64,000 nucleotides of DNA from an uncultured Gemmatimonadaceae bacterium (GCA_964605505.1 CAZSDD010000001.1:32840-96839); one strand, 5' to 3'. Positions 1-36,173 are shown, counted from the first letter of the stretch. Notes: a model not told the origin generated them from the sequence alone. Translations and numbers: made by a program.

Positions 1-300
1 CGGGGACCCCGGCCCTTCAACGCCGACATGCACCTCTTTCGCCCGGAAGTGAACGTGTATCTGGGAATGGCCTTCTTCTCGGATCTCAGGAGGCGGTTCG
101 GGGAAGATCTCTCGATCCTTCTCTCGGCCTACAATGCGGGCCCCACCCGGGCTCGCCGCTGGCGCGAGTTCCCCGAGGCCGGGGACCTGCCCCGCTTTGT
201 GGAACGGATCCCCTTCGCTGAGACCCGCGGCTACGTGAAAAACGTCCTTCGGAATCGGGAGATCTATGCATGGCTGTACGGGGGTGGCGCCCATGGTTGA
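1..300 (+). CDS. soluble lytic transglycosylase (SLT domain), C-terminal fragment; 5' end lies outside the window
   Basis: Frame 1 is open from base 1. The translation contains LSAYNAGPTRARRW and ETRGYVKNVLRN, typical of the C-terminal part of Slt-type lytic murein transglycosylases. Confidence 0.75.
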   Translation, partial: RGPRPFNADMHLFRPEVNVYLGMAFFSDLRRRFGEDLSILLSAYNAGPTRARRWREFPEAGDLPRFVERIPFAETRGYVKNVLRNREIYAWLYGGGAHG

Positions 301-11710: not shown

Positions 11711-11786
11711 CGAATCCAGGCAAACCCTGGCAGGATTGCCGGGAATTCAGCACCCTTCGGGGAAAACCCCGCCAGGAGGAGCTTCC

Positions 11787-19840: not shown

Positions 19841-19886
19841 GCAAGAATCTTCCGGTAGGCACGAATTTTCGAAGAGGGAGAGAACC

Positions 19887-22418
19887 ATGAGAAGTGGGGC
19901 TTTCACCGCCGGCCGACGCCGGTATCGGAGCGCGAGGAGCTTCTTCGCAGGTTCCCCAGGAACGCCATGGGGGGGCCTTACCCTCATCCTCCTCCTCTTC
20001 TCCGGACTCCTTCCGTCGGCGGCGGTTTCCGGGCCCCTGGAAGCCCAGGAGCGCCTTTCCCTTCCCGGCCTGGACCATCCGGTGGAGATCCTGGTGGACC
20101 GCTGGGGCATCTCCCATATCTATGCCGAGACGGAGCACGATCTCTTTTTCGCCCAGGGGTGGAACGCTGCCCGGGACCGGCTCTTCCAACTGGAGATCTG
20201 GAGGCGACAGGCCACGGGAACGGTGGCGGAGATCCTGGGACCCCGGGAGCTGGCACGGGACGTGGGGGCCCGGCTCTTCCGATTTCGGGGTGACCTGGAG
20301 CAGGAGCTCCGGCACTACCATCCCCGGGGGGTGGAGATCATCCAGGCCTTCGTGGACGGCATCAACGCCTATGTGGCGGCGGCCCTGGAAGATCCGGACC
20401 TCCTTTCGGTGGAGTTCAGGATGCTGGGGATCCAGCCAGGGTACTGGACGCCGGAGGTGGTCATCTCCAGACATCAGGGTCTCCTCTCCAACGTCCGGTC
20501 CGAGCTTGGGTACGGGAGGGCCGTGGCGGTGGCCGGTCCGGAAGCGGTGAAGGATGTGGCGGCATTTCAGCCCCGGGACCCGGAACTGGCCCTGGACCCG
20601 GCCCTGGACAAGGATCACCTCCTGGAGCACGACGTTCTGGCTCTCTACTCCGCCTTTCGGGGTTCCATCCGATTCCAGCCGGAGGATGTGCTTCCCGAAT
20701 TCCGGGAAGAAGCCGGGACCGAGGTCGGGGAGCTTCCGAGAGGGTCTCCGGATTCGCCGGGGTGGGTCGACTCGGGGCGGGGGCCCGCGGTTTCGTTTCG
20801 TGACATCGGGAGCAACAACTGGATTGTTTCGGGACGGCGATCCGCCAGCGGGTTCCCCATCATGGCCAACGATCCCCACAGGGCCCAGGCCGCCCCGTCC
20901 CTCCGGTACTGGGTTCACCTGGTAGGGCCCGGGTGGAACGTCATCGGCGGTGGGGAGCCGGTCCTTCCCGGAGTGTCCATCGGCCACAACGAGCACGGGG
21001 CCTGGGGCCTCACGGTTTTCGCAACCGACACCGAGGATCTCTACGTCTACGAGTTGAGTTCCCGGGATGCGGACCTCTATCGATACAGAGGCAGCTGGGA
21101 GCGGATGACGGTGATCTCCGACACGATCCCCGTCCGGGGCCGGGACCCGGAGGTGGTGGAACATCGCTATACCCGCCATGGCCCGGTGGTCTACCGGGAC
21201 GAGGAGGCCGGCATCGCCTACGCCGTCCGGGCGGCCTGGATGGAGGTGGGGGGAGCCCCCTACCTGGCTTCCCTTCGAATGGATCAGGCCACGAGCTGGG
21301 AGGAATTCCGGGATGCCTGTACCTATTCCAATATCCCCGGGGAGAACATGATCTGGGGGGACCGTACCGGGACCACGGGGTGGCAGGCCGTGGGGATCGC
21401 GCCCATCCGCCGGAACTGGAGCGGCCTGGTGCCGGTGCCGGGAGACGGCCGTTATGAGTGGGATGGCTACCTGCCCATCCAGGCCAAGCCCCATCTGGTG
21501 AATCCCCCGGAAGGGTACTTTGCCACGGCCAACAACTACCTCGTTCCACCGGACTATCCCTTTCCCGATGCCGTGGGCTTCGAGTGGTCCGATCCCTACA
21601 GGTGGCTCCGGGCGGTGGAGGTCCTGGCCGGAGGCCGCCGCTTCACCCTGCAGGACATGATGGCACTCCAGACCGACGAGCTCTCCATTCCGGCCCGGAC
21701 CCTGGTGCCCCTCCTGGCGGAGCTTTCGGCGGGGAGCCCGGCCGTGGAGTCGGCCAGGCTGCGTCTGGTGGGCTGGGATCATGTTCTGGACCGGGGGTCC
21801 GTGGCCGCCGGTATCTACGTCGCCTGGGAGGGCCATCTCAGAAGCCGGGTTCGGAGCCTGATGATGCCGGAGGCCCTCCGACCTCACCTGGGCTCCGTGT
21901 CCATGAGACAGATGCTGGAATGGATCCTCCTGCCCGACGGGAATTTCGGGGACGATCCGGTGGCGGGACGGGACGCGTTCCTCCTTTCGGCCCTGGATGC
22001 GGCGGTGGAGGAGCTCTCGGAACGATTCGGCCGGGACCAGGAAGCCTGGGTCTACGGCCAGGAGGCCTACAAGCACATCCGCCTCCGGCATCCCCTGAGC
22101 CGGGCCGTGAGTGCCGAGTGGCGGGATCGGCTGGAGGTGGGGCCGGCCCCGCGGGGAGGGAACTCCTATACGTTGAACCAGACCGGAGGGGGTGACAACC
22201 AGACCTCCGGAGCCTCCTTCCGCATCATCGTGGACACGGAGGACTGGGATCGCACGGTAGGAATGAACAATCCGGGCCAGGGAGGCCATCCGGACCACCC
22301 CCATTATGAGGACCTCTTCCGGCTCTGGGCCCGGGACGGGTTCCACCCCGTCTTCTACACCCGGGAAAAGGTGGAGTCGGTAACGGGGGAGCGGATTCGC
22401 CTGGAGCCAAAGAGGTAG
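19887..22418 (+). CDS. penicillin acylase family Ntn-hydrolase (peptidase S45; AHL/penicillin/PvdQ-type acylase)
   Basis: Signal peptide, then VEILVDRWGISHIYAETEHDLFFAQGWNAARDRLFQLE. The self-processing site is GSNNWIVSGRRSASGFPIMANDPH. The start was moved to ATG 19887; the upstream part of the 923-aa ORF overlaps the M24 gene. Confidence 0.88.
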   Translation: MRSGAFTAGRRRYRSARSFFAGSPGTPWGGLTLILLLFSGLLPSAAVSGPLEAQERLSLPGLDHPVEILVDRWGISHIYAETEHDLFFAQGWNAARDRLFQLEIWRRQATGTVAEILGPRELARDVGARLFRFRGDLEQELRHYHPRGVEIIQAFVDGINAYVAAALEDPDLLSVEFRMLGIQPGYWTPEVVISRHQGLLSNVRSELGYGRAVAVAGPEAVKDVAAFQPRDPELALDPALDKDHLLEHDVLALYSAFRGSIRFQPEDVLPEFREEAGTEVGELPRGSPDSPGWVDSGRGPAVSFRDIGSNNWIVSGRRSASGFPIMANDPHRAQAAPSLRYWVHLVGPGWNVIGGGEPVLPGVSIGHNEHGAWGLTVFATDTEDLYVYELSSRDADLYRYRGSWERMTVISDTIPVRGRDPEVVEHRYTRHGPVVYRDEEAGIAYAVRAAWMEVGGAPYLASLRMDQATSWEEFRDACTYSNIPGENMIWGDRTGTTGWQAVGIAPIRRNWSGLVPVPGDGRYEWDGYLPIQAKPHLVNPPEGYFATANNYLVPPDYPFPDAVGFEWSDPYRWLRAVEVLAGGRRFTLQDMMALQTDELSIPARTLVPLLAELSAGSPAVESARLRLVGWDHVLDRGSVAAGIYVAWEGHLRSRVRSLMMPEALRPHLGSVSMRQMLEWILLPDGNFGDDPVAGRDAFLLSALDAAVEELSERFGRDQEAWVYGQEAYKHIRLRHPLSRAVSAEWRDRLEVGPAPRGGNSYTLNQTGGGDNQTSGASFRIIVDTEDWDRTVGMNNPGQGGHPDHPHYEDLFRLWARDGFHPVFYTREKVESVTGERIRLEPKR

Positions 22419-25741: not shown

Positions 25742-26647
25742 ATGAGCACGGCAGCCACGGATACAAATCGGAAGCGTAAGGGCCGCAAGAATCCTCTTGC
25801 GGGGTTCTCCGCCACCGTGGAGGAGCAATCAGCTCTGGATCAGTACCTCCGGGACGTGAGCCGACACGAGCTCATCTCACCGGACCGGGAGAAGGAGCTG
25901 GGGGCCCTGGCCCAGAAGGGTGACGAGGACGCCGTCCAGGAGCTGGCCAGAGCGAACCTCCGCTTCGTCATCAGTGTGGCCAAGAAGTACCAGAACCGCG
26001 GCGTGTCCCTCACGGATCTGATCCAGGAGGGGAATGTGGGACTGGTGACGGCCGCCCGGAAGTTCGATCCGGACCAGGGTGTGAAGTTCATCAGTTACGC
26101 CGTCTGGTGGATCCGCCAGGCGATTCTGGCCTCACTGGCCAATCAGGGCCGTGCCGTCCGGGTGCCTCTGAACCGGGCCTCGGACCTGGCCAGGATCTTC
26201 CGGGAGAAGGAGCGTCTGAAGCAGGAGCTCCGCCGGGAGCCTACCGCCGAGGAACTCAGCGCCGCCACGGATCTGACGCCGGAGTTGGTGGAGTCCCTTC
26301 AGACGCTGAACGCTGCCGAAATCCGGTTGGACGCCCCCATCGGGGACAGCGAGGACTCCCAGCTGGTGGAGCGTTTCATCACCGAGGAGGCCGCCGAGCC
26401 GGAGGTGGAGGTGGAAGGCCGCCTCCTCAGCGAGGCCATCAGCGAGGCCCTGGAAACCCTGGAGGCCCGGGATGCCAAGGTGCTTCGACTCTATTTCGGG
26501 CTCGAGGGAGAGCGTGAGCACACCCTGGAGGAGATCGGGAACATGTTGGGCGTGACCCGGGAGCGGATTCGACAGCTTCGGGACCGTGCCCTGCGACGCC
26601 TCCGGGAGGGTGACAAGGGGATCGCCCTGGAGTCTTTCGCCGCCTGA
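25742..26647 (+). CDS. RNA polymerase sigma-70 family factor, short primary-like; paralogue of the 5676-6536 gene
   Basis: LARANLRFVISVAKKYQNRG, KFISYAVWWIRQAI, LEARDAKVLRLYFGL, TLEEIGNMLGVTRERIRQLRDRALRRLR. ATG 25742 (MSTAATD). Confidence 0.9.
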   Translation: MSTAATDTNRKRKGRKNPLAGFSATVEEQSALDQYLRDVSRHELISPDREKELGALAQKGDEDAVQELARANLRFVISVAKKYQNRGVSLTDLIQEGNVGLVTAARKFDPDQGVKFISYAVWWIRQAILASLANQGRAVRVPLNRASDLARIFREKERLKQELRREPTAEELSAATDLTPELVESLQTLNAAEIRLDAPIGDSEDSQLVERFITEEAAEPEVEVEGRLLSEAISEALETLEARDAKVLRLYFGLEGEREHTLEEIGNMLGVTRERIRQLRDRALRRLREGDKGIALESFAA

Positions 26648-26686
26648 TGCTCAAGGCGTCGCCGCCCCGTCGGCGGTGGAATCCGA

Positions 26687-26740
26687 CCGCCTTCCGCGGA
26701 CCCCGGAACCTGAGGGGTGCGGAGGGCGGTCTTCTTTTTT
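26687..26740 (+). terminator. intrinsic terminator after the sigma gene
   Basis: 11-bp stem CCGCCTTCCGC/GCGGAGGGCGG (one G-T pair), followed by TCTTCTTTTTT. Confidence 0.7.
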
Positions 26741-26753
26741 CCCGGGACATGGG

Positions 26754-27716
26754 GTGACCGTGGAAAGGGGGCTGGTCCACGGAAGCGAAGGGGGTGTCTA
26801 CCAGGTCGTCCTGGATTCGGGGGAGCAGGTGGATGCCTCTCTTCGGGGGCGCGTCAAGCGGGAAGCCCGGGTCGGTGACCGGGTCGTCATCGGGGACTCG
26901 GTGGACGTTCGCCGGGATGCTGACGGCTCGGTGACCATCGAGGCCGTTCACCCCCGCCGCACCCAGGTCATCCGAAGAGGGCCGGGGGGGCGTCGAGCCA
27001 AGGTGGTTGCTGCCAATGTGGACCGCCTGGTGGCGGTGGTGGCGGCCCGTAGACCTGCTCCCAGGCAGGCCCTCATCGATCGCCTTCTGGTGGTGGGAGA
27101 GGTCAATCGCCTGGAAATCGTCCTGGTGGTGAACAAACAGGATCTCCTGGCCGGGGCCGAAGGAGGGGAGGGGGCCGGAGAGAAGGGTGCAGAGGAGCTC
27201 CGGGCGCTGGTGGAGCTATACCGGGACCTGGGATACCCGGTCCTGGAAACCAGCGCCAGGGACGGTCGGGGGATGGAATCCCTGCGGGGATTCCTCTGCC
27301 GGGGGATCTCGGCACTGGTGGGGCCTTCCGGCGCGGGAAAGTCCACCCTGTTGAACGCGATACAACCCGGCCTCTCCCTGAGAACCGGGGGAGTGAGCCT
27401 GAAAGCGGGCCGGGGTCGTCACACCACCGTGAGCGCCCGGCTCCTCACCCTGGCATGCGGCGGAGTGGTGGCGGACACCCCCGGCTTTTCAGATGTAGGG
27501 GTGTGGGGGGTTGAGGCCAGGGAGCTGGAGGGGTGCTTCCCCGAGTTTTCCCTCTACCGCGAAGGGTGTCGTTTCCGGGGATGCACCCACCTCCACGAGC
27601 CGGGGTGCCGGGTCCGGGGCGCGCTGGAAGAAGGGGTGATAGATCCGGGGCGCTACGAGAGCTACCGGATCCTCTTCCAGGAAGCCCAGGAAGCGGACCG
27701 GCGCCTCTTCAGGTGA
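26754..27716 (+). CDS. rsgA: ribosome small-subunit-dependent GTPase A
   Basis: OB N-terminus, circularly permuted GTPase (VVNKQDLL ... GPSGAGKSTLLNAI ... GRGRHTT ... DTPGF) and a zinc knuckle (CRFRGCTHLHEPGC). A GTG start at 26754 or 26760 was inferred; the ORF-track start at 26586 overlaps the sigma gene. Confidence 0.88.
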   Translation: MTVERGLVHGSEGGVYQVVLDSGEQVDASLRGRVKREARVGDRVVIGDSVDVRRDADGSVTIEAVHPRRTQVIRRGPGGRRAKVVAANVDRLVAVVAARRPAPRQALIDRLLVVGEVNRLEIVLVVNKQDLLAGAEGGEGAGEKGAEELRALVELYRDLGYPVLETSARDGRGMESLRGFLCRGISALVGPSGAGKSTLLNAIQPGLSLRTGGVSLKAGRGRHTTVSARLLTLACGGVVADTPGFSDVGVWGVEARELEGCFPEFSLYREGCRFRGCTHLHEPGCRVRGALEEGVIDPGRYESYRILFQEAQEADRRLFR

Positions 27717-27722
27717 CCCTCC

Positions 27723-28529
27723 TCACCTGTTCTTGGCGGGTCCAGGGGCTCCTTCCCCGAGGGGGGTGATCTGGGGGGCTCCCGTGACCGGGTCCCTCCG
27801 GACCGCCACGGGCCAGCGGTAGACCGCCTCCAGGATCTCTTCCCGAAACACCTCCTGCACCCCTCCCTCCGCCGCCACCCTTCCCCCGTCCAGGAGGAGG
27901 ATCCGGTCCGAGAACCGGGCAGCCAGATTCATGTTATGGGTGATGACCATCACCGTCATTCCCTGGTTTGCCGATGCCCTCAGGAGTTGAAAGATGGACA
28001 TCTCGTGACGGACGTCCAGGCTGGCCGTGGGCTCGTCGAGAACCAGGGCCGTGGGCTCCTGGGCCAGGGCCCTGGCGATGCGAACCCGCTGGATCTCCCC
28101 TCCTGAAAGGGTGGTGACGTCCCGGCCCCCCAGATCCGCCACATCACAACGATGGAGGGCCTTCCTGATGGCTTCCCGGTCCCTGGCCCCCTCGGCATGG
28201 AGTGGCCCGAGATGAGGATAGCGACCCATGGCCACGAAATCCCGGACCGAGAGGGGGAAGGCCAGGTGCTCGTTCTGGGCCACGGCACCCACGGTCCTGG
28301 CCAGCTCCCGGCGGCTCCACTTCCCCGTCTCCTTCCCTTCCACCAGGGTGCTGCCGCCGGAGGGTCGAATGAGCCCCAGGAGGGCCCTCATGAGGGTGGA
28401 CTTGCCTGAGCCGTTGGGTCCCAGCACGGCGTAGAGGGCACCGTGGGGAACCGCCATGGTGACCCCGTCCAGAGCCGGGATATGAAACCTCCCGTAGCGC
28501 ACCACCAGATCCCGGGTCTGGAAAGTCAT
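27723..28529 (-). CDS. ABC transporter ATP-binding protein (FecE/BtuD-type, iron-chelate/cobalamin importer)
   Basis: Walker A GPNGSGKST, signature LSGGEIQRVRIA, Walker B LVLDEPT. Confidence 0.88.
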   Translation of the reverse strand: MTFQTRDLVVRYGRFHIPALDGVTMAVPHGALYAVLGPNGSGKSTLMRALLGLIRPSGGSTLVEGKETGKWSRRELARTVGAVAQNEHLAFPLSVRDFVAMGRYPHLGPLHAEGARDREAIRKALHRCDVADLGGRDVTTLSGGEIQRVRIARALAQEPTALVLDEPTASLDVRHEMSIFQLLRASANQGMTVMVITHNMNLAARFSDRILLLDGGRVAAEGGVQEVFREEILEAVYRWPVAVRRDPVTGAPQITPLGEGAPGPAKNR

Positions 28530-29515
28530 CCCGAGAGGCTCCGGCGGAGGAGGACGAGAAAGAGGGGCACCCCCAGAAAGGCCGTGATGACGCCGATGGG
28601 AATCTCCGTGGGATCCAGGATGAGGCGAGCCCCCACGTCGGCCAGCATGAGGAAGGCGGCCCCGGCCAGAAAGGAGAGGGGAAGGATCACACGCTGATCC
28701 GAGCCCACCAGGAGCCGGAGGATGTGGGGGATGATGAGGCCCACGAAGCCGATGATTCCGGCCACCGCCACCCCGGCAGCAGTGATGAGGGAGGCCACGG
28801 CGTAGGCGATCCGCTTCACCCGCTCCACATCGGTGCCCAGGTAGCTGGCCGTCTCCTCCCCCACGGCCATGAGGTTCAGGGCCCGGGCCAGTCCCATCAG
28901 GATCAACGTGGCCGGGAGGGTATAGGCCGCCACCACCGCGACGCTCTTCCAGGAGGCTCCGGCCAGGCTCCCCATCATCCAGAGAACGGCGCTCCGGACG
29001 GCCTGGGCCTCGGAGATGGACAGAATGAGGGCGATGACGGCCGTGAAGAAGGCCCCCACCACCACGCCGGCCAGGAGGAGGACCCGGACGTCCAGGCGCC
29101 GGTCTGCCGAGGCAGCCACCCCGAAAACCAGGAAGATGGCCAGAAGGGCGCCTCCGAATGCGGCGGCCGGCAAGAGGACGGAGCTCCGGGAGGCCAATCC
29201 CAGGGAGAGGACCGCCACGGCCCCCGCCGCAGACCCGCCGGAGATGCCCAGGATGTACGGCTCGGCCAGAGGGTTCCGCAGGAGAGCCTGGAACACGGAG
29301 CCGGAAAGGGCCAGGCCGCCCCCCACCAGGAGACCCAGGAGGGCTCTGGGAAGGCGGATCTCCAGGAGGATCCGACGGAAGATGGGATCCCCTTCTCCTG
29401 TGAGGATCTGGAGCGTCTGAAGGGTTGTGAGGGACACGTGGCCCAGCCGGATGTTCAGAAAAAACGCTGCCCCAAGCCCGGCCAGCAGGAGGAGGGTCAG
29501 AAGGCGCCGGTTCAC
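28526..29515 (-). CDS. ABC importer permease (FecCD/BtuC family)
   Basis: IRLPRALLGLLVGGGLALSGSVFQALLRNPLAEPYILGISGG ... is typical FecCD. The GTG start at 29515 overlaps the upstream stop (GTGA). The rest of the 649-aa ORF is an out-of-frame overlap with the binding-protein gene. Confidence 0.88.
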   Translation of the reverse strand: MNRRLLTLLLLAGLGAAFFLNIRLGHVSLTTLQTLQILTGEGDPIFRRILLEIRLPRALLGLLVGGGLALSGSVFQALLRNPLAEPYILGISGGSAAGAVAVLSLGLASRSSVLLPAAAFGGALLAIFLVFGVAASADRRLDVRVLLLAGVVVGAFFTAVIALILSISEAQAVRSAVLWMMGSLAGASWKSVAVVAAYTLPATLILMGLARALNLMAVGEETASYLGTDVERVKRIAYAVASLITAAGVAVAGIIGFVGLIIPHILRLLVGSDQRVILPLSFLAGAAFLMLADVGARLILDPTEIPIGVITAFLGVPLFLVLLRRSLSG

Positions 29516-30423
29516 CGGAAAACCCCGGGATGGAGGATGCGGGCCAGATCCCACGCCTGTCGAGCCAGATCCGGCCCCGGGATCTCCAGCTCCGGAGAGA
29601 CCCTCCGAAGAGGGACGGGGATTCTGGGGAGGAGCACCTCGATGCCCTCCGGGGCGAGGATGAGATCCATGTCCCGAACCAGGAATGCCTCGGCGTTCAC
29701 CGGCCCGTAGAGACCCTCGAGGTCGGCGAAGACGTTCACGCCACCAGCCAGCTCCAGAAGCTCGTGGAGGTAACTCCCGGGCCCGGCCACCCATGGGGGA
29801 CTCCCGCCGAGGAGATAGGCCACCCGCACCGGAGGTCTTCCGGCGACACGGGCTTCGAGACGTTCCAGGTCCCGGGCCATTGCGCCCAGAATGCTGTCGG
29901 CCTCCTTCTCCCTGCCGGTAATCCTGCCAAGGTGCCGGATGGTTCGCCGAATGTCCCGGAGGCCATCGGGCCGGACGGCCAGATGGGCAATGCCCAGATC
30001 GTCGAGGCGCAGGGAGGTGGTGGGATCCGATTCTCCGCCGAAGCGGATTACCAGGTCCGGGTCCAAAGCCATGACCGCTTCCAGACTCGGATTCAGCCCG
30101 CCTCCCACCGAGGGTAGATGGGCCAGTGCCCCGGCGGTGTCGAAATCCGTTCGCCCCGCCAGGCGCTCGCCTGCCCCCAGGGCCAGCAGGATCCGGGAAG
30201 CGGAAGGAACCAGGGAGATGACACGTCGGGGAGGATCCCTGAAGAGGATGGTGTCGCCGGAAGCGTCCACCAGCCGGAGGGGAAATCCTTCCGAAGGCTC
30301 CTCCTCCCTCTCCTCCTCCCGGGAGCTTTCGACACCGCAGCCCGGAACCAGCAGGAGGAGCGGGAGGAGGAGCGGGAAGAGAAGGGCCGCCCTCACGCCC
30401 CGCCGTCTCCGGAGTCCCCACAT
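29512..30423 (-). CDS. periplasmic/lipoprotein substrate-binding protein (BtuF/FecB-like, class III)
   Basis: Lipobox LLLVPGCG. RVISLVPSASRILLALGAGERLAGRTDF ... SLEAVMALDPDLVI matches the BtuF/FhuD-type pattern. Start ATG 30423. Confidence 0.8.
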   Translation of the reverse strand: MWGLRRRRGVRAALLFPLLLPLLLLVPGCGVESSREEEREEEPSEGFPLRLVDASGDTILFRDPPRRVISLVPSASRILLALGAGERLAGRTDFDTAGALAHLPSVGGGLNPSLEAVMALDPDLVIRFGGESDPTTSLRLDDLGIAHLAVRPDGLRDIRRTIRHLGRITGREKEADSILGAMARDLERLEARVAGRPPVRVAYLLGGSPPWVAGPGSYLHELLELAGGVNVFADLEGLYGPVNAEAFLVRDMDLILAPEGIEVLLPRIPVPLRRVSPELEIPGPDLARQAWDLARILHPGVFR

Positions 30424-31397
30424 GGATCCTGGTAGGTGAGGACCCAGCCGTCGGGGCCCCGCTCCAGGGCTGCAAACCAGCGCGCTTCTTCTCCCATGAC
30501 CTCCAGGAGGATCTCCTGGTCTCCGTCCCGGTCCCAATCCAGGCGGGAGAAGTACCGGGGAGCTCCCTTTCCGTCCTCCCCCACCTTCCGGTACCAGGTG
30601 AAGGCGAGGTCGAAGGTGGAGCCCCGGGGCTCGCCGAGAATCATGAGGGCGTATGCGCTGTCCGGGGCCGGACCCACCCGGAGGTCATCCCCATGGACGA
30701 AGGTAGCCATGACGGCCGGCGCTCCTGCTCCAGGGAGCTCGAACACCTGGATATCCCGCCGGGTTTCCAGGAGAGAGGCGGGCCAGGAAGCCCCTACCAG
30801 GGGAATGGCTTCGGCACCCAGGTTCAAAGAGGCCACTCGCTGGTCGTATACGCTGCCAAGAGTCTGAAAGGGCCCGAAGCCAAATCCCGAAACCCGTTCC
30901 GGTTCCAGCGCGATGAATCTCTCGGCCTCGGCAGCCTCCGGTACCAGCTGGAGTCGGCCGACGGCCTGGGCCCGGACCCCGCAATAGGGCTCCGTGACCA
31001 GCTTCGCCTCTTCCACTTCCACTGTGCCCACCCGGACGCCCTGGTGGAAGAGGGACAGGGCCGTCCCGGGAGCCAGGCGCCGGCTCAGGAGCTGCCGGGA
31101 CGCTTCCTCGCTTTCCGGGGCTGGGGGCAGAGGCTGAAGGCCCTCCTCGGTAAGGACCGCCACCGGGAAGATCCGGACCGCGTCTCCCTCACGGAGGCCC
31201 GCGTAGAGAAAGGGACCCGGGTCCTGGTCCCGTGGCTCGGGCTGGGTGGCCTGTCCCGAATCCGGGGCCGGGGCCGCGGAGTCGGCCGCAGGAGCCCGGA
31301 GTGCCACCTCGATGCCGCCCCAGGATACGTTGTCGCAAGCAGATGCGGCGCTTACAATGCCAACCAAAAGGAGCCAGTGGGGTACTCTTCCGATCAT
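30393..31397 (-). CDS. hypothetical lipoprotein, first gene of the ABC importer operon
   Basis: Signal peptide plus Cys (LLLVGIVSAASAC). I recognise no family. The C-terminus contains DWDRDGDQEILLEV (FG-GAP/calcium-loop-like). It overlaps the next gene by 31 nt. The ATG at 31397 is preferred over the TTG at 31400. Confidence 0.6.
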   Translation of the reverse strand: MIGRVPHWLLLVGIVSAASACDNVSWGGIEVALRAPAADSAAPAPDSGQATQPEPRDQDPGPFLYAGLREGDAVRIFPVAVLTEEGLQPLPPAPESEEASRQLLSRRLAPGTALSLFHQGVRVGTVEVEEAKLVTEPYCGVRAQAVGRLQLVPEAAEAERFIALEPERVSGFGFGPFQTLGSVYDQRVASLNLGAEAIPLVGASWPASLLETRRDIQVFELPGAGAPAVMATFVHGDDLRVGPAPDSAYALMILGEPRGSTFDLAFTWYRKVGEDGKGAPRYFSRLDWDRDGDQEILLEVMGEEARWFAALERGPDGWVLTYQDPCGDSGDGGA

Positions 31398-31590
31398 CAA
31401 TTCCCTTCAATCCCCCCCGGCCGGGCGCCAGGGACGGCCCGCCGGAGCACCCTGAAAGTTCCAGAAATGGGAGAAACCCGAAGAAAGCACATAAAAGCTA
31501 GGGTGCCAGGTGGGCAGAGGCAAAAGGGAGGAGCCGGAGTCCCTGCCCAGTGGGGGTTCCGGAGGGATCGAACGGTCAGGCAGGGAGAGA

Positions 31591-32064
31591 ATGGTCGAAG
31601 AGATGAAGTTCCGAACCGTCATGGGACATTTCGCAACCGGCGTGACGGTGGTGACCACCCGGGACGGAGGCGCGACTCCCCTGGGCCTTACCGTAAGCGC
31701 GTTTACCTCCGTCTCTCTGCGACCCCTTCAGGTCCTCATCTGTGTCCATAAGAATGCCGGGCCGCACGATGCCATTCTGAAAAGCAGGAGCTTTGCCGTG
31801 AACGTCCTTTCGGCAGATCAGGCGCACCTGGCTACCCGGTTCGCCACAGGCCCCACGGGGGAGCGCTTCCGGGGGCTGGAATTTCGAGATGACCCGCTGG
31901 GCAATCCGCTTCTGCCCGGTTTGGCCTGGCTGACCTGCCGCGTTCGGGAAGTCTGGCCCGGAGGGGACCACTCGGTGATCCTGGGAGAGGTTCAGGATTG
32001 TGACGCCCGGGAGGGTCGGCCCCTCCTCTTCTTCAAGGGACGTCTCGAAGGCAGGATCTCGTGA
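31591..32064 (+). CDS. flavin reductase (HpaC/NADH:FMN oxidoreductase family)
   Basis: FRTVMGHFATGVTVVTT ... GLTVSAFTSVSLRPLQVLICV ... SVILGEV is a classic flavin reductase domain. The start is ATG 31591 or ATG 31603. Confidence 0.85.
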   Translation: MVEEMKFRTVMGHFATGVTVVTTRDGGATPLGLTVSAFTSVSLRPLQVLICVHKNAGPHDAILKSRSFAVNVLSADQAHLATRFATGPTGERFRGLEFRDDPLGNPLLPGLAWLTCRVREVWPGGDHSVILGEVQDCDAREGRPLLFFKGRLEGRIS

Positions 32065-33362
32065 GTCGCGGCCGATCCGTGCTGGGAGCCCTGCCCCCTT
32101 TCGTCATCGGATTGGCCGGAGCCGGAGTCGCGGAGATCTCCGCCACCCTCCTCCTTTATTCCGCCGAGGGGTTCCTTCCGGCGTTGACCCTGATCCTCAC
32201 CGTCGAAGCCGGAGCCTTCGCCCTGGGCTTGTGGAGCGGTTCGGCGCAGGTGGGATCCGTCAGTGTGGAGCAGCTCCGGCTCCGGTGGCTCTTTGCCCTG
32301 GTAGCCCTGTCCCTGGCGGCTGCGTTCTCCACGGGGATGACGGTCATGGAGGAGGTGTTCAGGGGGGGGCTGTGGCAGGGGTTCGGCCTGGCCTTCCTGG
32401 GAAGCCTTCCCCTTTTCGCCCTGGGCTCCCTCCTGGCGGCCATGGGAAGATCCCGGCCTTCCGGGGCCTGGAAACCGGGGGTGTCGGCGGCCTTTGGGCT
32501 GGCGGCGGGCTTTCTCCTTACCGGCGTGCTCCTGCTCCCGAACATGGCTCCCTACACCTTCTATCTCCTCCTCCTCTCGGCCCTATCCGGCGGCGCCCTC
32601 CTTCACGGCTGGGTCCTGGACGGGCGTCTCCAGGCCTCGGTGGTGGAGGAGATTCCCACCCCCCGGGGCATGGCAAGGGTGGAGGACCGCCGCACCGGTG
32701 CAGCCGGGCTCCAGTGGCGCGTCATCCTGGAGGGAGGGCGCGTTCGGGCCCGGGAGAGTGTGGACGGAAGGAGCGGACGGGGATGGGAGAACGCCGTCCT
32801 GGAAGGGTTGAAAGAAGGGGAACATTGTCCGAGCCCCGTCCTTTTCCTGGGAGGAGGGGGGGGCACCCTGGCCCGGCTTCTCCTGGACGACTTTCCTGAA
32901 GTGGACCTCCTGGTGGTGGAGGAGAGCCGGGAGGTGCTGCGGCTGGCCCGGAAACACCTCCGGCCGTTCCCTGGTTGGGAACGGGTGCGGTGCGAGATGG
33001 GTCGTCCCTGGCGGATACTGGAGGAACTGGAGATGACGTTTCCCCTCCTCCTGGTGGACCTGGAGGCGGTTCCGTCCCTGGGACCGATCCCGGACATCCC
33101 CGCCCGGGTGTGGAAGGAGATGGCTTGCCGGGCGGGGGCTGAAGGCCTGGTCGTATTGGGAGGGCTCGCCCTCCGGGATCGGTTGGGGAAAGCCCCTGTG
33201 GAAGGCCTCCTCAGGGAGGCTTCCCGGCACTTCGCGACAGGGGTCGTCTATGAAGGAGACGAGGAGGCCTTCCTCTTCGCCTCCGGATCCCGGGCCCCCA
33301 TCTGGCCCCGGGTCCTCCCGGGGTTCCGCGCCACGGTGTCCACTGAAGATCTGGACGGGTAG
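32061..33362 (+). CDS. membrane protein fused to a spermidine-synthase-like (class I SAM-MTase fold) domain
   Basis: About 190 aa of hydrophobic helices are followed by VLFLGGGGGTLARLLLDDFPEVDLLVVEESREVLRLARKHL. The GTG start overlaps the flavin reductase stop (GTGA). Confidence 0.7.
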   Translation: MSRGRSVLGALPPFVIGLAGAGVAEISATLLLYSAEGFLPALTLILTVEAGAFALGLWSGSAQVGSVSVEQLRLRWLFALVALSLAAAFSTGMTVMEEVFRGGLWQGFGLAFLGSLPLFALGSLLAAMGRSRPSGAWKPGVSAAFGLAAGFLLTGVLLLPNMAPYTFYLLLLSALSGGALLHGWVLDGRLQASVVEEIPTPRGMARVEDRRTGAAGLQWRVILEGGRVRARESVDGRSGRGWENAVLEGLKEGEHCPSPVLFLGGGGGTLARLLLDDFPEVDLLVVEESREVLRLARKHLRPFPGWERVRCEMGRPWRILEELEMTFPLLLVDLEAVPSLGPIPDIPARVWKEMACRAGAEGLVVLGGLALRDRLGKAPVEGLLREASRHFATGVVYEGDEEAFLFASGSRAPIWPRVLPGFRATVSTEDLDG

Positions 33363-33365
33363 CCG

Positions 33366-36173
33366 ATGCTACTGGCCCATCTTTCGGACCTGCACCTCGG
33401 CCACCGGGCCTATGACAGGGTGGAAGAGGGGAGAAACGTCCGGGAGAGGGATGTGGCCGCCGCCTTCCAACGTGCCGTCCAGGAGGTGATCCGGCTCAAG
33501 CCCGACCTTGTTCTTCTCGTGGGTGACATCTTCGATCGTCCGGATCCGCCCCCCAGCGCCCTGGTGGAGATGGCCCGGGGGTTGGAGGCCTTTCGGAGCG
33601 CCATTCCCGGCGCCCTGATCTTCATGGTGGCGGGGGCCCGGGATACCCCCAGGCCGGTGTCGGACCCCGGGGCCCTGGCGGCCCTGGATCCCTTTCCCCA
33701 GGTGGAGGCAGTGACGGGCACGGCGCGTTCAATCTTCCTCAGGGAAATGGAAACCCACCTCTACCTCATTCCCCACGGGGCGGTGGTCCGCCGGCCCTAT
33801 CCGGAGTTGAGGGTTCACCCGGAGGCCCGGTGGAACATCCTCCTGGCCTATGCCGGGGTGGGAACGGGTCCGGGGCCGGGATTGCCCCTGGACCCGGCTC
33901 CATGGGACTACGTGGCCCTGGGACACCTGCATCAGCGCCAGCAGGTAGCCCCCCGGGTCTTCTATCCCGGATCCCTGGAGCGGGTGGGGCCTGAGCCATG
34001 GAGGGAAGCAGCTCAGGAGAAGGGCTTCCTGACTTTCGACATGGAACGAGGGGTGTCTCGCTTTCATGCCATTCCCGGGCGGGCGGTGGTGGCACTGGCG
34101 CCCATACGGATCCCTCACGGCGAGGGTTCACACCTTGCGGAACGGGTCCGGGAAGTCCTGGGGGAAGTGCCCGGCGGCATCGACGGAAAGATCGTGCGGC
34201 TCCGGATCGAGGGACTCTCTCCCCAGGAGGTGAAGCGGCAGGACCGGAATCTCTTCTCTCCCCTCTGGAACCAGGCTCTCCACCTTGCCATCGAGGTGGA
34301 CGACTTCCACGACATGGGAGACGAAAATCGTCTTCCCCTGGTTTCCCGGGATCGGGGCTTCGCCCTTCGGGCCCTTCGGGAGCAGATCCGCGCCGGAGGC
34401 GGGAAGGAGGTTTCGCGGCTGCTGGATGAGCTGTCTTCCGACGCCACGCTCCCGGAAGATTCCCCCGGGAGGGAAGAGGATCTCCTGCTGAGAGAGCTCC
34501 ACGGGTCCCACCTCCCGTACCTGGGCTCTCTGAGCATGGAGGCCCAGGAGGGGCTTCTGGCCTGGATGGGCGGGGACGGCCGGGACCTCAGGTCCTTCGC
34601 TTCCACACTCCTATGGGGAGTGGGACTCTCTCCGGGGCTGCCGGGACAGAAGGGGGCGGAGGGAATGAAGCCGGAGCCTTCTGTGGCCATTCGCCTGGGG
34701 CTCAGGGAGGGAAGCTTCTGGGTCGGGAACGGTCCCGCGGGCAGCGGCTCCCTTCCGGGAAGAGGTGGCGAGACCCGGCCGGACTGGGGCCTTCGCCGGG
34801 AAGGCGTGGCCCTGGCCTGGTGCGGAGTGGGAGGTGAGACGCCGGAAGCCTTGCTGGAGAAGGGGGCACGTCTTCTGGCCGTTGCCAGGGGAGTGGAAGA
34901 CCTGGGGGCGCTGAAGGAGAAGCTCTGGAAGCTGCACCCCGGATTGAAGGACGGCCCGGACCTGGGCAGGCTGTCGCCCCAGGACTATGAGCGGCTGCGC
35001 CTGGAATCGGAGATGGCGGACCTCCAGGCCCAGCTCCGGGCCCTGGAGGACGTACCCGACCGGGTCATGGAGCTGGAGAGTAGGCTCCGGGAGCTCCGGG
35101 CCGAATATGCCGAGGTCATAGGAGATCTGGATGCCGGGACCATGGATTGGCACCGGGAGCGGCAGGATGCCGAGACCCATCTCCACGCCTACCGGGACCG
35201 GGGGCGGGAGGTCCGGGACCGGATTCGTAAACTGGAGTCCCTGGGGTCAGAGAGTCCCTGCCCCACCTGTGGCCGGCTCCTGGAAGAGCATTCCCAGAAG
35301 GTCCTGGAAAAGCTCCGGGAGGAGTGGGAGGGTCTGGTTCAGGACGGGCAGTGGTGGAGGAAGCGGTGGGAGCAGCTGGAGGCGAAACCGGAAGGCCTCA
35401 GAGATCTGGAAGGCAGGTCCCTGCGCATCAACGCAGAGCAGGAGGCCCTCACGGAGGAGCTGGAGCGGGCCCGCTCCTCCCTCCGGGAGCGAGACGAGAT
35501 CCGGGACCGGGAAAAGGAGGTCCAGCTTCGCCGGGAGCAGTTGGATGGCGAGGGTGGAGGCGGACGAGGGGCGGGTGAGGGCGGGACAGGGGTTCCGGGG
35601 CCCGGTGCCCCGGGGGTCCCTGAGGAGGCCCGGGTGCTCTTCAAACTGGTAAAGGGTCTCCTTCAGGAGATCATGGAGGAGAGTCGGGTTCGCCTGTTGC
35701 ACCGTGGAGGACGGCGTTTGAACCGGCTCACCGGTGGGCGCATCCTGGGGTTGGAGGTGGAGGGATGGGAGGGAGAGGTTCAACTGGTGGAGGGGGGAGG
35801 AACAGGGGGCGTTGAGACGGACCAGGACCGGGCCGCCGCCGTTGTAGCCCTTCGCATGGCTCTGGTGGAGCTCCTGGCCGAGGAGTGGAGCACCCTGGGC
35901 TCCTTCGTCCTGGGGGATCCCTTCGATCGAATGGGGGAGGAGGATCAGCTCCGCTGCCTGAGCCTCCTGAGGGGGGTCCTGTTCCGGATCCCCCAGATCA
36001 TGCTTCTGACCCGAGGCTCCGTGGTGGAGCGTGCGCCGGAGTTTTTCGACGGCCTCTTCGAGTTCCGGGAAGCTCCCGCCGAAGGGCTCCCTCCCCTCCG
36101 GTCCCTGCCGGCGGGTGTCGGGATGTTGCGGATCCGTCAGGAGACCAGCGTGACTTCAGGGAATGGCTCCTAA
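33366..36173 (+). CDS. single-chain SbcD/Mre11-like phosphoesterase fused to an SbcC/Rad50-like coiled-coil/zinc-hook protein; catalytic motifs look partly degenerate
   Basis: The N-terminus has Mre11 motifs I (LSDLHLGH), II (LVGDIFD) and V (ALGHLH). The GNHD position reads GARD and the motif IV His position reads LLAYAG. A mid-protein coiled coil carries CPTCGR (aa 632-635, nt 35259-35270). The Walker A position reads GGDGRDLRS, the signature position ETDQD, Walker B VLGDPF, and the H-loop LLTR. Confidence 0.7.
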   Translation: MLLAHLSDLHLGHRAYDRVEEGRNVRERDVAAAFQRAVQEVIRLKPDLVLLVGDIFDRPDPPPSALVEMARGLEAFRSAIPGALIFMVAGARDTPRPVSDPGALAALDPFPQVEAVTGTARSIFLREMETHLYLIPHGAVVRRPYPELRVHPEARWNILLAYAGVGTGPGPGLPLDPAPWDYVALGHLHQRQQVAPRVFYPGSLERVGPEPWREAAQEKGFLTFDMERGVSRFHAIPGRAVVALAPIRIPHGEGSHLAERVREVLGEVPGGIDGKIVRLRIEGLSPQEVKRQDRNLFSPLWNQALHLAIEVDDFHDMGDENRLPLVSRDRGFALRALREQIRAGGGKEVSRLLDELSSDATLPEDSPGREEDLLLRELHGSHLPYLGSLSMEAQEGLLAWMGGDGRDLRSFASTLLWGVGLSPGLPGQKGAEGMKPEPSVAIRLGLREGSFWVGNGPAGSGSLPGRGGETRPDWGLRREGVALAWCGVGGETPEALLEKGARLLAVARGVEDLGALKEKLWKLHPGLKDGPDLGRLSPQDYERLRLESEMADLQAQLRALEDVPDRVMELESRLRELRAEYAEVIGDLDAGTMDWHRERQDAETHLHAYRDRGREVRDRIRKLESLGSESPCPTCGRLLEEHSQKVLEKLREEWEGLVQDGQWWRKRWEQLEAKPEGLRDLEGRSLRINAEQEALTEELERARSSLRERDEIRDREKEVQLRREQLDGEGGGGRGAGEGGTGVPGPGAPGVPEEARVLFKLVKGLLQEIMEESRVRLLHRGGRRLNRLTGGRILGLEVEGWEGEVQLVEGGGTGGVETDQDRAAAVVALRMALVELLAEEWSTLGSFVLGDPFDRMGEEDQLRCLSLLRGVLFRIPQIMLLTRGSVVERAPEFFDGLFEFREAPAEGLPPLRSLPAGVGMLRIRQETSVTSGNGS

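What the first reader, a model, noticed from the sequence alone, without database searches (positions are those of the whole stretch)
33366..36173. Single-chain SbcD-SbcC (Mre11-Rad50) fusion with an intact zinc hook but apparently dead nuclease and ATPase motifs
SbcD/Mre11 and SbcC/Rad50 are normally two polypeptides. Here one 935-aa ORF has both. It starts with a calcineurin-like phosphoesterase domain carrying motifs I DLHLGH, II GDIFD and V GHLH. It continues into a Rad50-like head / short coiled coil / CPTCGR zinc hook / coiled coil / head arrangement. By eye the catalytic positions are eroded. Motif III GNHD reads GARD. The motif IV His reads Tyr (LLAYAG). Walker A GxxGxGKS reads GGDGRDLRS. 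The signature LSGGE reads ETDQD. Walker B hhhhDE reads FVLGDP. The H-loop His reads Arg (LLTR). The coiled-coil arms (about 90 aa each) are far shorter than in SbcC. A hook-bearing, probably ATP-independent Mre11-Rad50 pseudo-enzyme fusion is not something I know to be described. It could be a DNA-tethering scaffold or have a non-repair role.
Basis: partly seen in the sequence, partly recalled or inferred. Interest (0 to 1): 0.7.

Follow-up and report, generated by a model that had tools for sequence, protein, structure and literature searches.

The report
Motif-dead fused SbcD-SbcC orthologue
In this Gemmatimonadota genome the DNA-break-repair pair SbcD/SbcC (Mre11/Rad50) has become a single, strongly conserved protein that keeps its fold and zinc hook but has lost the residues needed to burn ATP and most of those needed to cut DNA.

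Summary
ORF 33366-36173 (+, 935 aa) is one polypeptide made of an Mre11/SbcD nuclease and capping domain, a helix-loop-helix, then a Rad50/SbcC head, about 90-aa coiled coil, CPTC hook, coiled coil and head.

Across 87 full-length homologues, Walker A Lys is never Lys, LSGGE has no Gly, and the H-loop His is Arg. Motif III GNHD is always G[A/P]RD. The hook cysteines and the four ligands of nuclease metal A are invariant.

It is not an artefact or a decaying gene (dN/dS 0.10).

The main new result is positional. In other Gemmatimonadota the same chromosomal slot holds a motif-intact two-gene sbcD-sbcC operon, so this gene is its fused, degenerate orthologue.

The fusion itself is not new: Mre11/Rad50 fusions were described in 2011 and occur in phage and giant-virus proteins. 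The family-wide, selected loss of catalytic motifs appears undescribed.

The function is inferred, not shown: an ATP-independent DNA-end tether or scaffold. Residual one-metal nuclease activity cannot be excluded.

The parts
33366..36173 (+). Whole gene: fused, motif-degenerate SbcD-SbcC (Mre11-Rad50) orthologue, 935 aa
   Evidence: dN/dS 0.10 against a 98%-identical relative
33366..34010 (+). Mre11/SbcD phosphoesterase (nuclease) domain, aa 1-215. Metal-A ligands D8, H10, D54 and H189 are invariant.
   Evidence: Pfam Metallophos; profile vs 3auz E 5e-18; Foldseek; motif table
33633..33644 (+). Former motif III, GNHD changed to GARD (aa 90-93). R92 and D93 are invariant in 87/87.
34011..34301 (+). 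Mre11 capping domain, aa 216-312
   Evidence: AF2; Foldseek alignment to Mre11 nuclease plus capping structures; BLASTP to the neighbouring-lineage SbcD covers residues 1-340
34359..34436 (+). Helix-loop-helix, aa 332-357, at the position of the Mre11 Rad50-binding domain
   Evidence: AF2 helices 332-344 and 346-357; 3av0_A aligned over 419 columns. The assignment is inferred.
34482..34934 (+). Rad50/SbcC-like head N-lobe, aa 373-523. It includes a clade-specific, poorly conserved insert at aa 419-477.
   Evidence: AF2; Foldseek to SMC and Rad50 heads; conservation
34569..34595 (+). Former Walker A, GxxGxGK[ST] changed to GGDGRDLRS (aa 402-410). R406 is invariant and the Lys position is L/R, never K.
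34977..35252 (+). Ascending coiled-coil arm, aa 538-629. Its hook-proximal half is among the best conserved parts of the protein.
   Evidence: AF2; conservation; BLASTP to canonical SbcC, 33% identity, E 5e-21
35253..35282 (+). Zinc hook, SPCPTCGRLL (aa 630-639). C632 and C635 are invariant.
   Evidence: Pfam Rad50_zn_hook E 0.005, below the cut-off; NCBIfam Rad50 models, aa 545-727, E 3.6e-8
35283..35552 (+). Descending coiled-coil arm, aa 640-729
   Evidence: AF2
35553..35621 (+). Gly-rich disordered insert, aa 730-752. It is specific to this clade.
   Evidence: pLDDT below 50; gaps in the other clade
35622..36140 (+). Rad50/SbcC-like head C-lobe, aa 753-925
   Evidence: profile vs P. furiosus Rad50 E 1e-7; Foldseek
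35814..35828 (+). Former signature motif, LSGGE changed to ETDQD (aa 817-821). It is acidic family-wide and D821 is present in 86/87.
35904..35936 (+). Former Walker B and D-loop, hhhhDEPxxxLD changed to FVLGDPFDRMG (aa 847-857). P852, F853 and D854 are invariant.
36003..36017 (+). Former H-loop, LLTRG (aa 880-884). The His is Arg in 84/87.
31510..32064 (+). Upstream operon gene, a flavin reductase-like protein. It is found upstream of both the fused and the canonical sbcDC forms in the phylum.
   Evidence: Pfam; synteny
32061..33362 (+). Upstream operon gene, a 433-aa membrane protein with no family match. It overlaps the flavin reductase gene by 4 nt and ends 3 nt before the target.
   Evidence: its N-terminal TM region is homologous to the 427-aa protein in the canonical locus

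Best explanation
What it is (shown). This gene is the chromosomal orthologue of the Gemmatimonadota sbcD-sbcC operon. The two genes have been joined at the old sbcD stop / sbcC start. The coiled coil has been cut from roughly 240 to roughly 90 residues per arm. The catalytic residues of the Rad50 ATPase and of Mre11 metal site B have been replaced by other residues that are themselves conserved.

How it most likely works (inferred). It is an ATP-independent structural Mre11-Rad50. It would dimerise through the Mre11 dimer interface and through Zn-mediated CPTC hooks, bind DNA ends, and hold, bridge or cap them without the ATP-driven clamp-and-cut cycle. The former ATP sandwich carries an Arg-rich ex-P-loop (GGxGRx[L/R]R), an acidic ex-signature ([ED][EQ]D), PFD in the ex-D-loop and RG in the ex-H-loop. 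This surface probably forms a fixed head interface or a filled pocket in place of nucleotide. The Mre11 domain keeps one metal (D8, H10, D54, H189) next to the invariant R92, either for DNA-end binding or for structure.
For: Fold and topology:
- AF2 pLDDT 85.
- Foldseek matches to Mre11 (E 3e-15) and to Rad50/SMC heads.
- Profile alignments to solved Mre11 and Rad50.

Motif loss is family-wide and replaced by new invariant residues: 87 homologues and 147 representatives at 50% identity, with the hook kept in all of them.

Selection:
- dN/dS 0.10 at dS 0.09.
- The Mre11 domain, the hook and the hook-proximal coiled coil are the best conserved parts, and the heads the least.

Orthology:
- The same slot (Fe ABC transporter, hypothetical gene, flavin reductase, TM protein, [X], then TMEM260-like glycosyltransferase (missing in L084) and hydantoinase) holds intact sbcD (GNHD) plus sbcC (GPNGSGKST, ISGGEE, LDEV, ITH, CPTC) in L082 and L083.
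- It holds fused degenerate genes in L001, L002, L084 and most of 78 genome loci.
- BLASTP to that SbcD gives 33% identity, E 4e-50. BLASTP to that SbcC hook region gives 33% identity, E 5e-21.

- The yeast motif III allele mre11-H125N is nuclease-dead yet keeps structural functions.
- The hook and the Mre11 dimer both tether DNA.
Against: - No experiment or dimer model supports DNA binding, hook dimerisation or head engagement here.
- In canonical MR, ATP binding by Rad50 is required for DNA binding and tethering. A tether without ATP therefore needs a new mechanism that has not been shown.
- The invariant metal-A ligands would not be needed by a pure scaffold. Known scaffold phosphoesterase folds usually lose them.
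- The L408/G850 versus R408/E850 pairing is a single clade split, so it is weak as covariation evidence.
- Whether these genomes also carry an active SbcCD elsewhere is unknown.
Confidence: 0.55

Rival explanations
1. It is still a nuclease or phosphoesterase. A one-metal active site (D8, H10, D54, H189) with R92 replacing metal B and the motif III His cuts DNA without ATP gating. The Rad50-like part serves only as a dimerising, substrate-positioning arm.
For: - The four metal-A ligands plus R92 and D93 are 100% conserved in 87 sequences and nearly so in divergent clades.
- The nuclease and capping domains are the most conserved globular parts.
Against: - The metal-B ligands are lost or variable: N84-equivalent is A/P, motif IV is H/Y/R/F, and the first His of motif V is present in 8/87.
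- Loss of the motif III His abolishes nuclease activity in characterised Mre11 proteins (yeast H125N, P. furiosus H85; from memory, not looked up).
Confidence: 0.25
2. The former ATP site binds a different ligand without hydrolysing it, so that the protein acts as a sensor or switch. Candidates are a phosphate-bearing small molecule, a nucleotide held by the arginines, or the DNA backbone.
For: - Two P-loop glycines (G402, G405) and the invariant R406 remain.
- The residues lining the old site are the most conserved positions in otherwise poorly conserved heads.
Against: - The Mg-coordinating Ser/Thr, the third Gly and the Lys of Walker A are gone.
- The Walker B acidic pair is variable.
- In divergent clades the P-loop region is not even Gly-rich.
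Confidence: 0.1
3. It is a regulator or decoy. It hooks onto, or competes with, an active SbcCD or another end-processing enzyme encoded elsewhere in the genome, limiting DNA-end resection.
For: - The hook and its flanks are about 33% identical to the canonical Gemmatimonadota SbcC hook region, so mixed hooks are conceivable.
Against: - It sits in the sbcDC slot itself, and no second sbcCD was seen in the 64-kb window or in the locus flanks. The fused and canonical forms therefore look like alternatives rather than partners.
- Co-occurrence genome-wide was not tested.
Confidence: 0.08
4. It is an artefact or a dying gene: a frameshift join of two genes, or a pseudogene drifting after loss of function.
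For: Split versions of the family exist, of about 373 aa plus about 490-560 aa.
Against: - More than 85 full-length fused homologues from independent assemblies, down to 40% identity.
- 332 species genomes carry a relative.
- dN/dS is 0.10.
- The replacement residues are invariant.
Confidence: 0.01

Closest known systems
Canonical bacterial SbcCD / archaeal Mre11-Rad50 (E. coli SbcCD; M. jannaschii and P. furiosus MR; the sbcD-sbcC pair of other Gemmatimonadota in L082 and L083)
   Same: - Same folds and domain order: nuclease, capping, HLH; then head, coiled coil, CxxC hook, coiled coil, head.
- Same chromosomal slot as the Gemmatimonadota sbcDC.
- Shared lineage-specific hook-flank motifs (YRDRAREL...CPTC...LVQDGxW) and the LTxGR motif.
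   Different: - One polypeptide instead of two.
- Arms of about 90 aa against about 240 aa. The canonical arm length is inferred from motif positions.
- Walker A Lys, signature SGG, the Walker B DE pair, the H-loop His, motif III N and H, and the metal-B histidines are all replaced.
Natural Mre11/Rad50 fusion proteins (Mimivirus R555, Clostridium kluyveri plasmid, Deferribacter; Yoshida, Claverie and Ogata 2011, PMC3175470)
   Same: N-terminal Mre11-like and C-terminal Rad50-like parts in one chain. The best BFVD structural matches, for example Listeria phage LMTA-57 'recombination exonuclease' (1009 aa, E 1.6e-30), are long single chains that align over most of the model; their domain make-up was not checked here.
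   Different: - Those fusions keep the Walker A/B and phosphoesterase motifs.
- They are sporadic and linked to viruses and plasmids, and they are not derived from the host's own canonical genes.
- This one is core-chromosomal, vertically inherited within one phylum, derived in situ from the resident operon, and motif-degenerate.
Lamassu LmuB/LmuC (anti-phage system proposed to derive from SbcCD; PMC12663957)
   Same: - An SbcC-derived CxxC protein with shortened coiled coils.
- LmuB structures are among the top Foldseek matches of the Rad50-like part (9hqx_B, E 4e-9).
- Weak PADLOC LmuB hits to the coiled coil.
   Different: - There is no LmuA effector or any defence neighbourhood.
- The full Mre11 nuclease fold is retained and fused.
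- The PADLOC hits cover only aa 541-719.
Phage T4 gp46/gp47 (from general knowledge)
   Same: A compact Rad50 homologue with short coiled coils.
   Different: Two subunits, and an active ATPase and nuclease.
Catalytically inactive calcineurin-like phosphoesterase folds: Vps29 and the B subunits of eukaryotic DNA polymerases alpha, delta and epsilon (from general knowledge)
   Same: The Mre11-type fold is kept as a binding module after loss of catalytic residues.
   Different: Those proteins lost most metal ligands. Here one complete metal site is invariant.

Membership tests
Mre11/SbcD nuclease family | Calcineurin-like phosphoesterase fold plus capping domain | tested here: met
   Foldseek to Mre11 and SbcD structures, E 3e-15 to 1e-10, TM (target) 0.57-0.72; Pfam Metallophos 30.6 bits against a 21.5 cut-off
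Mre11/SbcD nuclease family | Complete set of phosphoesterase motifs (DxH, GD, GNH[DE], H, GHxH) giving a two-metal site | tested here: not met
   Motif III is G[A/P]RD in 87/87. Motif IV is H46/Y41. The first His of motif V is present in 8/87. Only the metal-A ligands are kept.
Mre11/SbcD nuclease family | Score above the curated family threshold (NCBIfam TIGR00619 sbcd; Mre11 equivalogs) | tested here: not met
   TIGR00619 scores 42.8 bits against 77.65; the Mre11 equivalogs score 41-49 bits against 500-600
Mre11/SbcD nuclease family | C-terminal helix-loop-helix that binds the Rad50 coiled-coil base | tested here: inconclusive
   Helices 332-344 and 346-357 lie at the right place, and 3av0_A aligns over 419 columns. 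No coordinates or contact map were available to check docking.
Rad50/SbcC ABC-ATPase family | Bipartite ABC head split by an antiparallel coiled coil | tested here: met
   AF2; Foldseek to Rad50 NBDs with TM (target) 0.53-0.59 and to SMC head 5xei at E 5e-11; profile vs P. furiosus Rad50 C-lobe E 1e-7
Rad50/SbcC ABC-ATPase family | CxxC zinc hook at the coiled-coil apex | tested here: met
   CPTC lies at 632-635 between helices 563-629 and 640-672 and is invariant. NCBIfam Rad50 models hit aa 545-727 at E 3.6e-8. Pfam Rad50_zn_hook scores 17 bits, below the 24.3 cut-off. Zinc binding itself is not testable here.
Rad50/SbcC ABC-ATPase family | Walker A GxxGxGK[ST] | tested here: not met
   The motif is GGDGRDLRS. 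The Lys position is L44/R42/A1.
Rad50/SbcC ABC-ATPase family | Signature LSGG[EQ], Walker B hhhhDE and H-loop His | tested here: not met
   The three motifs are [EL][AS][ED][EQ]D, [GE][DEQ] and Arg in 84/87 respectively.
Rad50/SbcC ABC-ATPase family | ATP binding and hydrolysis | not testable with these tools
   Needs a biochemical assay.
Described natural Mre11/Rad50 fusions (R555-like) | Mre11-like N-terminus and Rad50-like C-terminus in one ORF | tested here: met
   the description is from PMC3175470
Described natural Mre11/Rad50 fusions (R555-like) | Intact catalytic motifs; sporadic, mobile-element-linked distribution; distinct from the host's canonical genes | tested here: not met
   The motifs are degenerate. 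The context is core-chromosomal and syntenic across the phylum, and the gene is the positional orthologue of the canonical sbcDC.
Lamassu (LmuA/LmuB/LmuC) | LmuB with an adjacent LmuA effector and LmuC; match to the PADLOC models over the heads | tested here: not met
   The PADLOC LmuB hits (E 8e-8) cover only the coiled coil, aa 541-719. The neighbours are a flavin reductase, a membrane protein and a glycosyltransferase.

The most novel reading that the evidence does not exclude
A large, ancient part of the phylum Gemmatimonadota has converted its only SbcCD into a fused, ATP-independent and nuclease-dead Mre11-Rad50, and has kept it under strong selection. This would show that the architectural function of MR (hook, Mre11 dimer, head scaffold) is selectable on its own. 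It would also show that Rad50-type heads can work without nucleotide, perhaps by a built-in Arg/acid head latch that mimics the ATP-engaged state.
Probability: 0.35. Interest if true: 0.8.

Novelty: new variant of a known kind. Interest (0 to 1): 0.65.

Why it matters
In every characterised Mre11-Rad50/SbcCD, ATP binding by Rad50 is taken to be indispensable for DNA binding, tethering and nuclease gating. Here a natural orthologue has dispensed with the ATPase motifs and half of the nuclease site, yet remains under strong purifying selection across hundreds of species. Motif-intact sister lineages keep the ordinary two-gene operon at the same locus.

That makes it a ready-made separation-of-function system. 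It lets one ask which MR functions are purely architectural, how heads and hooks act without a nucleotide cycle, and what Gemmatimonadota use instead for hairpin and blocked-end processing. Many members of the phylum live in dry, irradiated soils.

It is also an annotation warning. Databases label these proteins 'SbcD' or 'DNA repair exonuclease', which the motifs do not support.

Tried and rejected
- Frameshift or assembly artefact. Rejected: full-length homologues exist in more than 85 clusters and 332 species genomes.
- Decaying pseudogene. Rejected: dN/dS is 0.10 and the replacement residues are invariant.
- Misplaced motifs, with intact Walker or GNHD motifs elsewhere in the sequence. Rejected by profile alignments to solved structures and by the ungapped alignment to the neighbouring canonical SbcC.
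- 'ISGGR' (aa 788-792) as the true signature motif. I considered this by eye and rejected it. It aligns with the Rad50/SbcC 'LTxG[KR]Y' strand (EFTEGKY in P. furiosus, ITDGRY in the canonical neighbour), not with LSGGE.
- Defence system (Lamassu, Wadjet). Rejected: only coiled-coil-level PADLOC hits and a housekeeping neighbourhood.
- Functional link to the flavin reductase and membrane protein operon. Not informative, because the canonical sbcDC sits in the same operon, so the context is inherited.
- Covariation of positions 408 and 850 as evidence for a filled pocket. It is only a two-clade split, that is, one event.
- Literature. No paper on a degenerate SbcCD or Mre11-Rad50 in Gemmatimonadota was found.
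Full report
**1. The observation**

ORF 33366..36173 (+) encodes 935 aa. It starts at an ATG 3 nt after the stop of the upstream gene.

Pfam finds a calcineurin-like phosphoesterase domain at residues 1-190, above the cut-off, and a sub-threshold Rad50 zinc hook at 621-653. NCBIfam gives weak Mre11/SbcD matches at the N-terminus. It also matches Rad50 models over the coiled coil and hook (aa 545-727, E 3.6e-8). No ATPase-head model matches.

**2. It is a real, conserved family**

A search of 5.8 billion proteins returns several hundred relatives. More than 85 clusters are full length (830-935 aa) and 40-98% identical. Those that carry a name are labelled Gemmatimonadota.

A scan of one genome per species finds relatives in 332 genomes. 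The best 80 are nearly all labelled Gemmatimonadota (Gemmatimonadales or Longimicrobiales); two are labelled only 'uncultured bacterium' and one Planctomycetota.

Against a 98%-identical relative the gene shows dS 0.09, dN 0.009 and dN/dS 0.10. A frameshift join or a decaying pseudogene is therefore excluded.

**3. The motif assignments hold**

A profile of the family aligns to M. jannaschii Mre11 (3auz, E 5e-18). That alignment pairs VAGNHEMPRR with vAGaRDtPrr, ILMLHQG with lLvayae, and ALGHIHKR with ALGgeHrr.

A profile of the C-terminal 570 residues aligns to P. furiosus Rad50 (3qku, E 1e-7). The Rad50 sequence LSGGERIALGLAFRLA...LLILDEPTPYLD...QVILVSH lies over eseeDrAaakvalRla...slvleePFDrld...rvlLltrg.

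The N-lobe aligns without gaps to a canonical Gemmatimonadota SbcC, GLTGIIGPNGSGKST over GLLAWMGGDGRDLRS.

The table below gives the state of each motif over 87 homologues.

| Position | State in 87 homologues |
|---|---|
| D8, H10, D54, H189 (metal A) | 100% conserved |
| Motif III Asn | A46 / P41 |
| Motif III His | R87 |
| Motif IV His | H46 / Y41 |
| Motif V, first His | present in 8/87 |
| Walker A Lys | L44 / R42 / A1, never K |
| R406 (in the ex-P-loop) | 100% conserved |
| Signature LSGGE | [EL][AS][ED][EQ]D, no Gly |
| Walker B DE | [GE][DEQ] |
| H-loop His | R84 |
| Hook C632, C635 | 100% conserved |

The same pattern holds in 147 representatives at 50% identity. These include more divergent fused clades (740-900 aa) and split two-gene forms of about 373 aa plus about 490-560 aa. 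They have GxRD at motif III, no P-loop Lys, and the CPTC hook retained.

**4. Structure**

AlphaFold2 with the 87-sequence alignment gives pLDDT 85.1 and pTM 0.72. The model divides as follows.

| Residues | Element |
|---|---|
| 1-215 | nuclease domain |
| 216-312 | capping domain |
| 332-357 | helix-loop-helix |
| 373-523 | head N-lobe |
| 538-629 | ascending helices |
| 630-639 | hook |
| 640-729 | descending helices |
| 730-752 | disordered Gly-rich insert |
| 753-925 | head C-lobe |

Foldseek against the PDB gives Mre11 structures first (E 3e-15, target TM 0.6-0.72).

A separate model of the Rad50-like part (pLDDT 82) matches SMC, Rad50 and LmuB heads. These include 5xei at 5e-11, 9hqx_B at 4e-9, and Rad50 NBDs at 1e-7 to 1e-6 with target TM 0.53-0.59.

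**5. Origin: the key new result**

The closest motif-intact relatives in 1.8 billion representative proteins are standalone SbcD proteins of 380-410 aa with GNHD, H and GHxH. Their nearest homologues that carry a name are again labelled Gemmatimonadota.

In two long contigs (L082, L083) this canonical sbcD is followed by an 810-aa sbcC. That sbcC has GPNGSGKST, ISGGEE, ILILDEVF, ILITH and a CPTC hook.

The pair lies in the same slot as the window gene. The order is:
- Fe ABC transporter
- a hypothetical gene
- flavin reductase
- a roughly 430-aa membrane protein
- [sbcD-sbcC, or the fused gene]
- TMEM260-like glycosyltransferase (missing in L084)
- hydantoinase
- chorismate-binding enzyme

The order was checked. 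A divergent 773-aa fused clade sits there too.

Sequence comparisons support the same origin:
- The window protein is 33% identical to that SbcD over residues 1-340 (E 4e-50).
- It is 33% identical to that SbcC around the hook (E 5e-21).
- It shares the lineage-specific motifs YRDRAREL...CPTC...LVQDGxW and LTxGR.

By eye, the junction (…LPEDSPGREEDLLLRELHG…) corresponds to the SbcD tail followed by the SbcC start (…DPDEPLLEPSAP* MRLARLHL…). The split degenerate forms begin exactly there.

The gene is therefore the fused, shortened and motif-degenerate orthologue of the phylum's own sbcDC. It is not an acquired fusion.

**6. What is conserved**

Mean conservation is highest in the nuclease domain (0.75), the capping domain (0.74), the ascending arm (0.74) and the hook (0.88). 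It is lower in the C-lobe (0.63) and lowest in the N-lobe (0.60, falling to 0.28 in its insert).

Within the heads, several of the few invariant residues line the former ATP sandwich: R406, A823, R830 and P852-F853-D854, together with the nearly invariant D821, R883 and G884. So the old catalytic surfaces were remodelled under selection, not abandoned.

**7. Mechanism (inferred)**

Without the P-loop Lys, the Mg-binding Ser/Thr, the signature glycines, the Walker B pair and the H-loop His, an ATP cycle is very unlikely.

The Mre11 site keeps metal A but has lost metal B and the motif III His. Changing that His kills nuclease activity in characterised Mre11 proteins (established knowledge, from memory).

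The best-supported reading is an ATP-independent architectural MR. It would be an Mre11 dimer plus hook-mediated assembly that binds, bridges or caps DNA ends. An Arg-rich ex-P-loop and an acidic ex-signature could form a fixed head interface.

Nothing beyond fold, conservation and orthology is shown. DNA binding, Zn binding and head contacts are all inferences.

The rival readings are:
- a residual one-metal nuclease
- a non-hydrolysing ligand sensor
- a decoy for an active SbcCD elsewhere in the genome

**8. Comparison with what is known**

The fusion as such is not new. Yoshida, Claverie and Ogata (2011) described Mre11/Rad50 fusions in Mimivirus, plasmids and some bacteria (PMC3175470). 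Foldseek against viral models finds many long single-chain phage and giant-virus proteins that align over most of the model, which suggests the same fused arrangement; I did not check their domain make-up. Listeria phage LMTA-57 is one example (1009 aa, E 1.6e-30).

The published fusions keep their motifs and are sporadic. Lamassu is a published SbcCD derivative with shortened coiled coils (PMC12663957). This locus has no effector and no defence context.

I found no paper describing a degenerate SbcCD of this kind.

**9. Verdict**

- Novelty: a new variant of a known kind.
- The main open point is whether these genomes retain any active SbcCD. I could not test this.

Noticed in passing
window 32061-33362 (+); L083 6721-8004: The 433-aa upstream membrane protein has no Pfam or NCBIfam match. 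Its N-terminal transmembrane region is homologous (E 2e-8) to that of the 427-aa protein at the same position in canonical-sbcDC loci. The C-terminal domains differ: a Rossmann-like GGGGG motif here, and an SDR (adh_short) there. In some relatives the gene is shortened or absent.
   Followed up: partly
window 36138-36173: The window protein carries an 11-aa C-terminal tail (QETSVTSGNGS) that is absent from 98%-identical relatives. In those relatives a stop codon occupies the Gln codon (L085, L086).
   Followed up: yes
proteins P0153, P0154, P0164, P0167, P0170, P0178: The degenerate family also exists as two separate genes. An Mre11-like protein of about 373 aa is paired with a Rad50-like protein of about 490-560 aa that starts exactly at the fusion junction. 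On the one contig seen, the upstream gene overlaps the second by 4 nt. Degeneration and fusion are therefore separable events.
   Followed up: partly
proteins P0215, P0130, P0132, P0225, P0214, P0232: Some proteins show apparent intermediate motif states, such as GAHD or GGHD (Asn lost, His kept) and GERD with the motif IV His kept. They suggest stepwise erosion of the Mre11 site across lineages.
   Followed up: no
L007 and L011 (MAG CAYOVN01); L015 and L020 (MAG JABDNZ01): Two copies of the fused gene lie on different contigs of the same MAG: complete copies in CAYOVN01, and one complete plus one cut at a contig end in JABDNZ01. In L007 the flavin reductase gene directly precedes the fused gene, without the membrane protein gene. 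These could be paralogues or mixed bins.
   Followed up: no
window 28526-30475 (-): This 649-aa mechanical ORF is probably over-extended. Only residues 336-645 match FecCD. In relatives the permease is about 330 aa and is followed by a separate periplasmic-binding-protein gene, probably 29512-30537 (-) here.
   Followed up: partly
window 266-3085, 9350-11617, 11736-14498, 19647-22418, 26586-27716: The rest of the window is ordinary core chromosome: DNA polymerase I, malic enzyme-PTA fusion, pyruvate phosphate dikinase, penicillin amidase and RsgA GTPase. There is no second sbcC/sbcD and no mobile or defence genes near the target.
   Followed up: partly
databases: Source annotations name the degenerate proteins 'exonuclease SbcD', 'DNA repair exonuclease SbcCD nuclease subunit' or 'metallophosphoesterase'. 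The motif states do not support an exonuclease annotation.
   Followed up: yes
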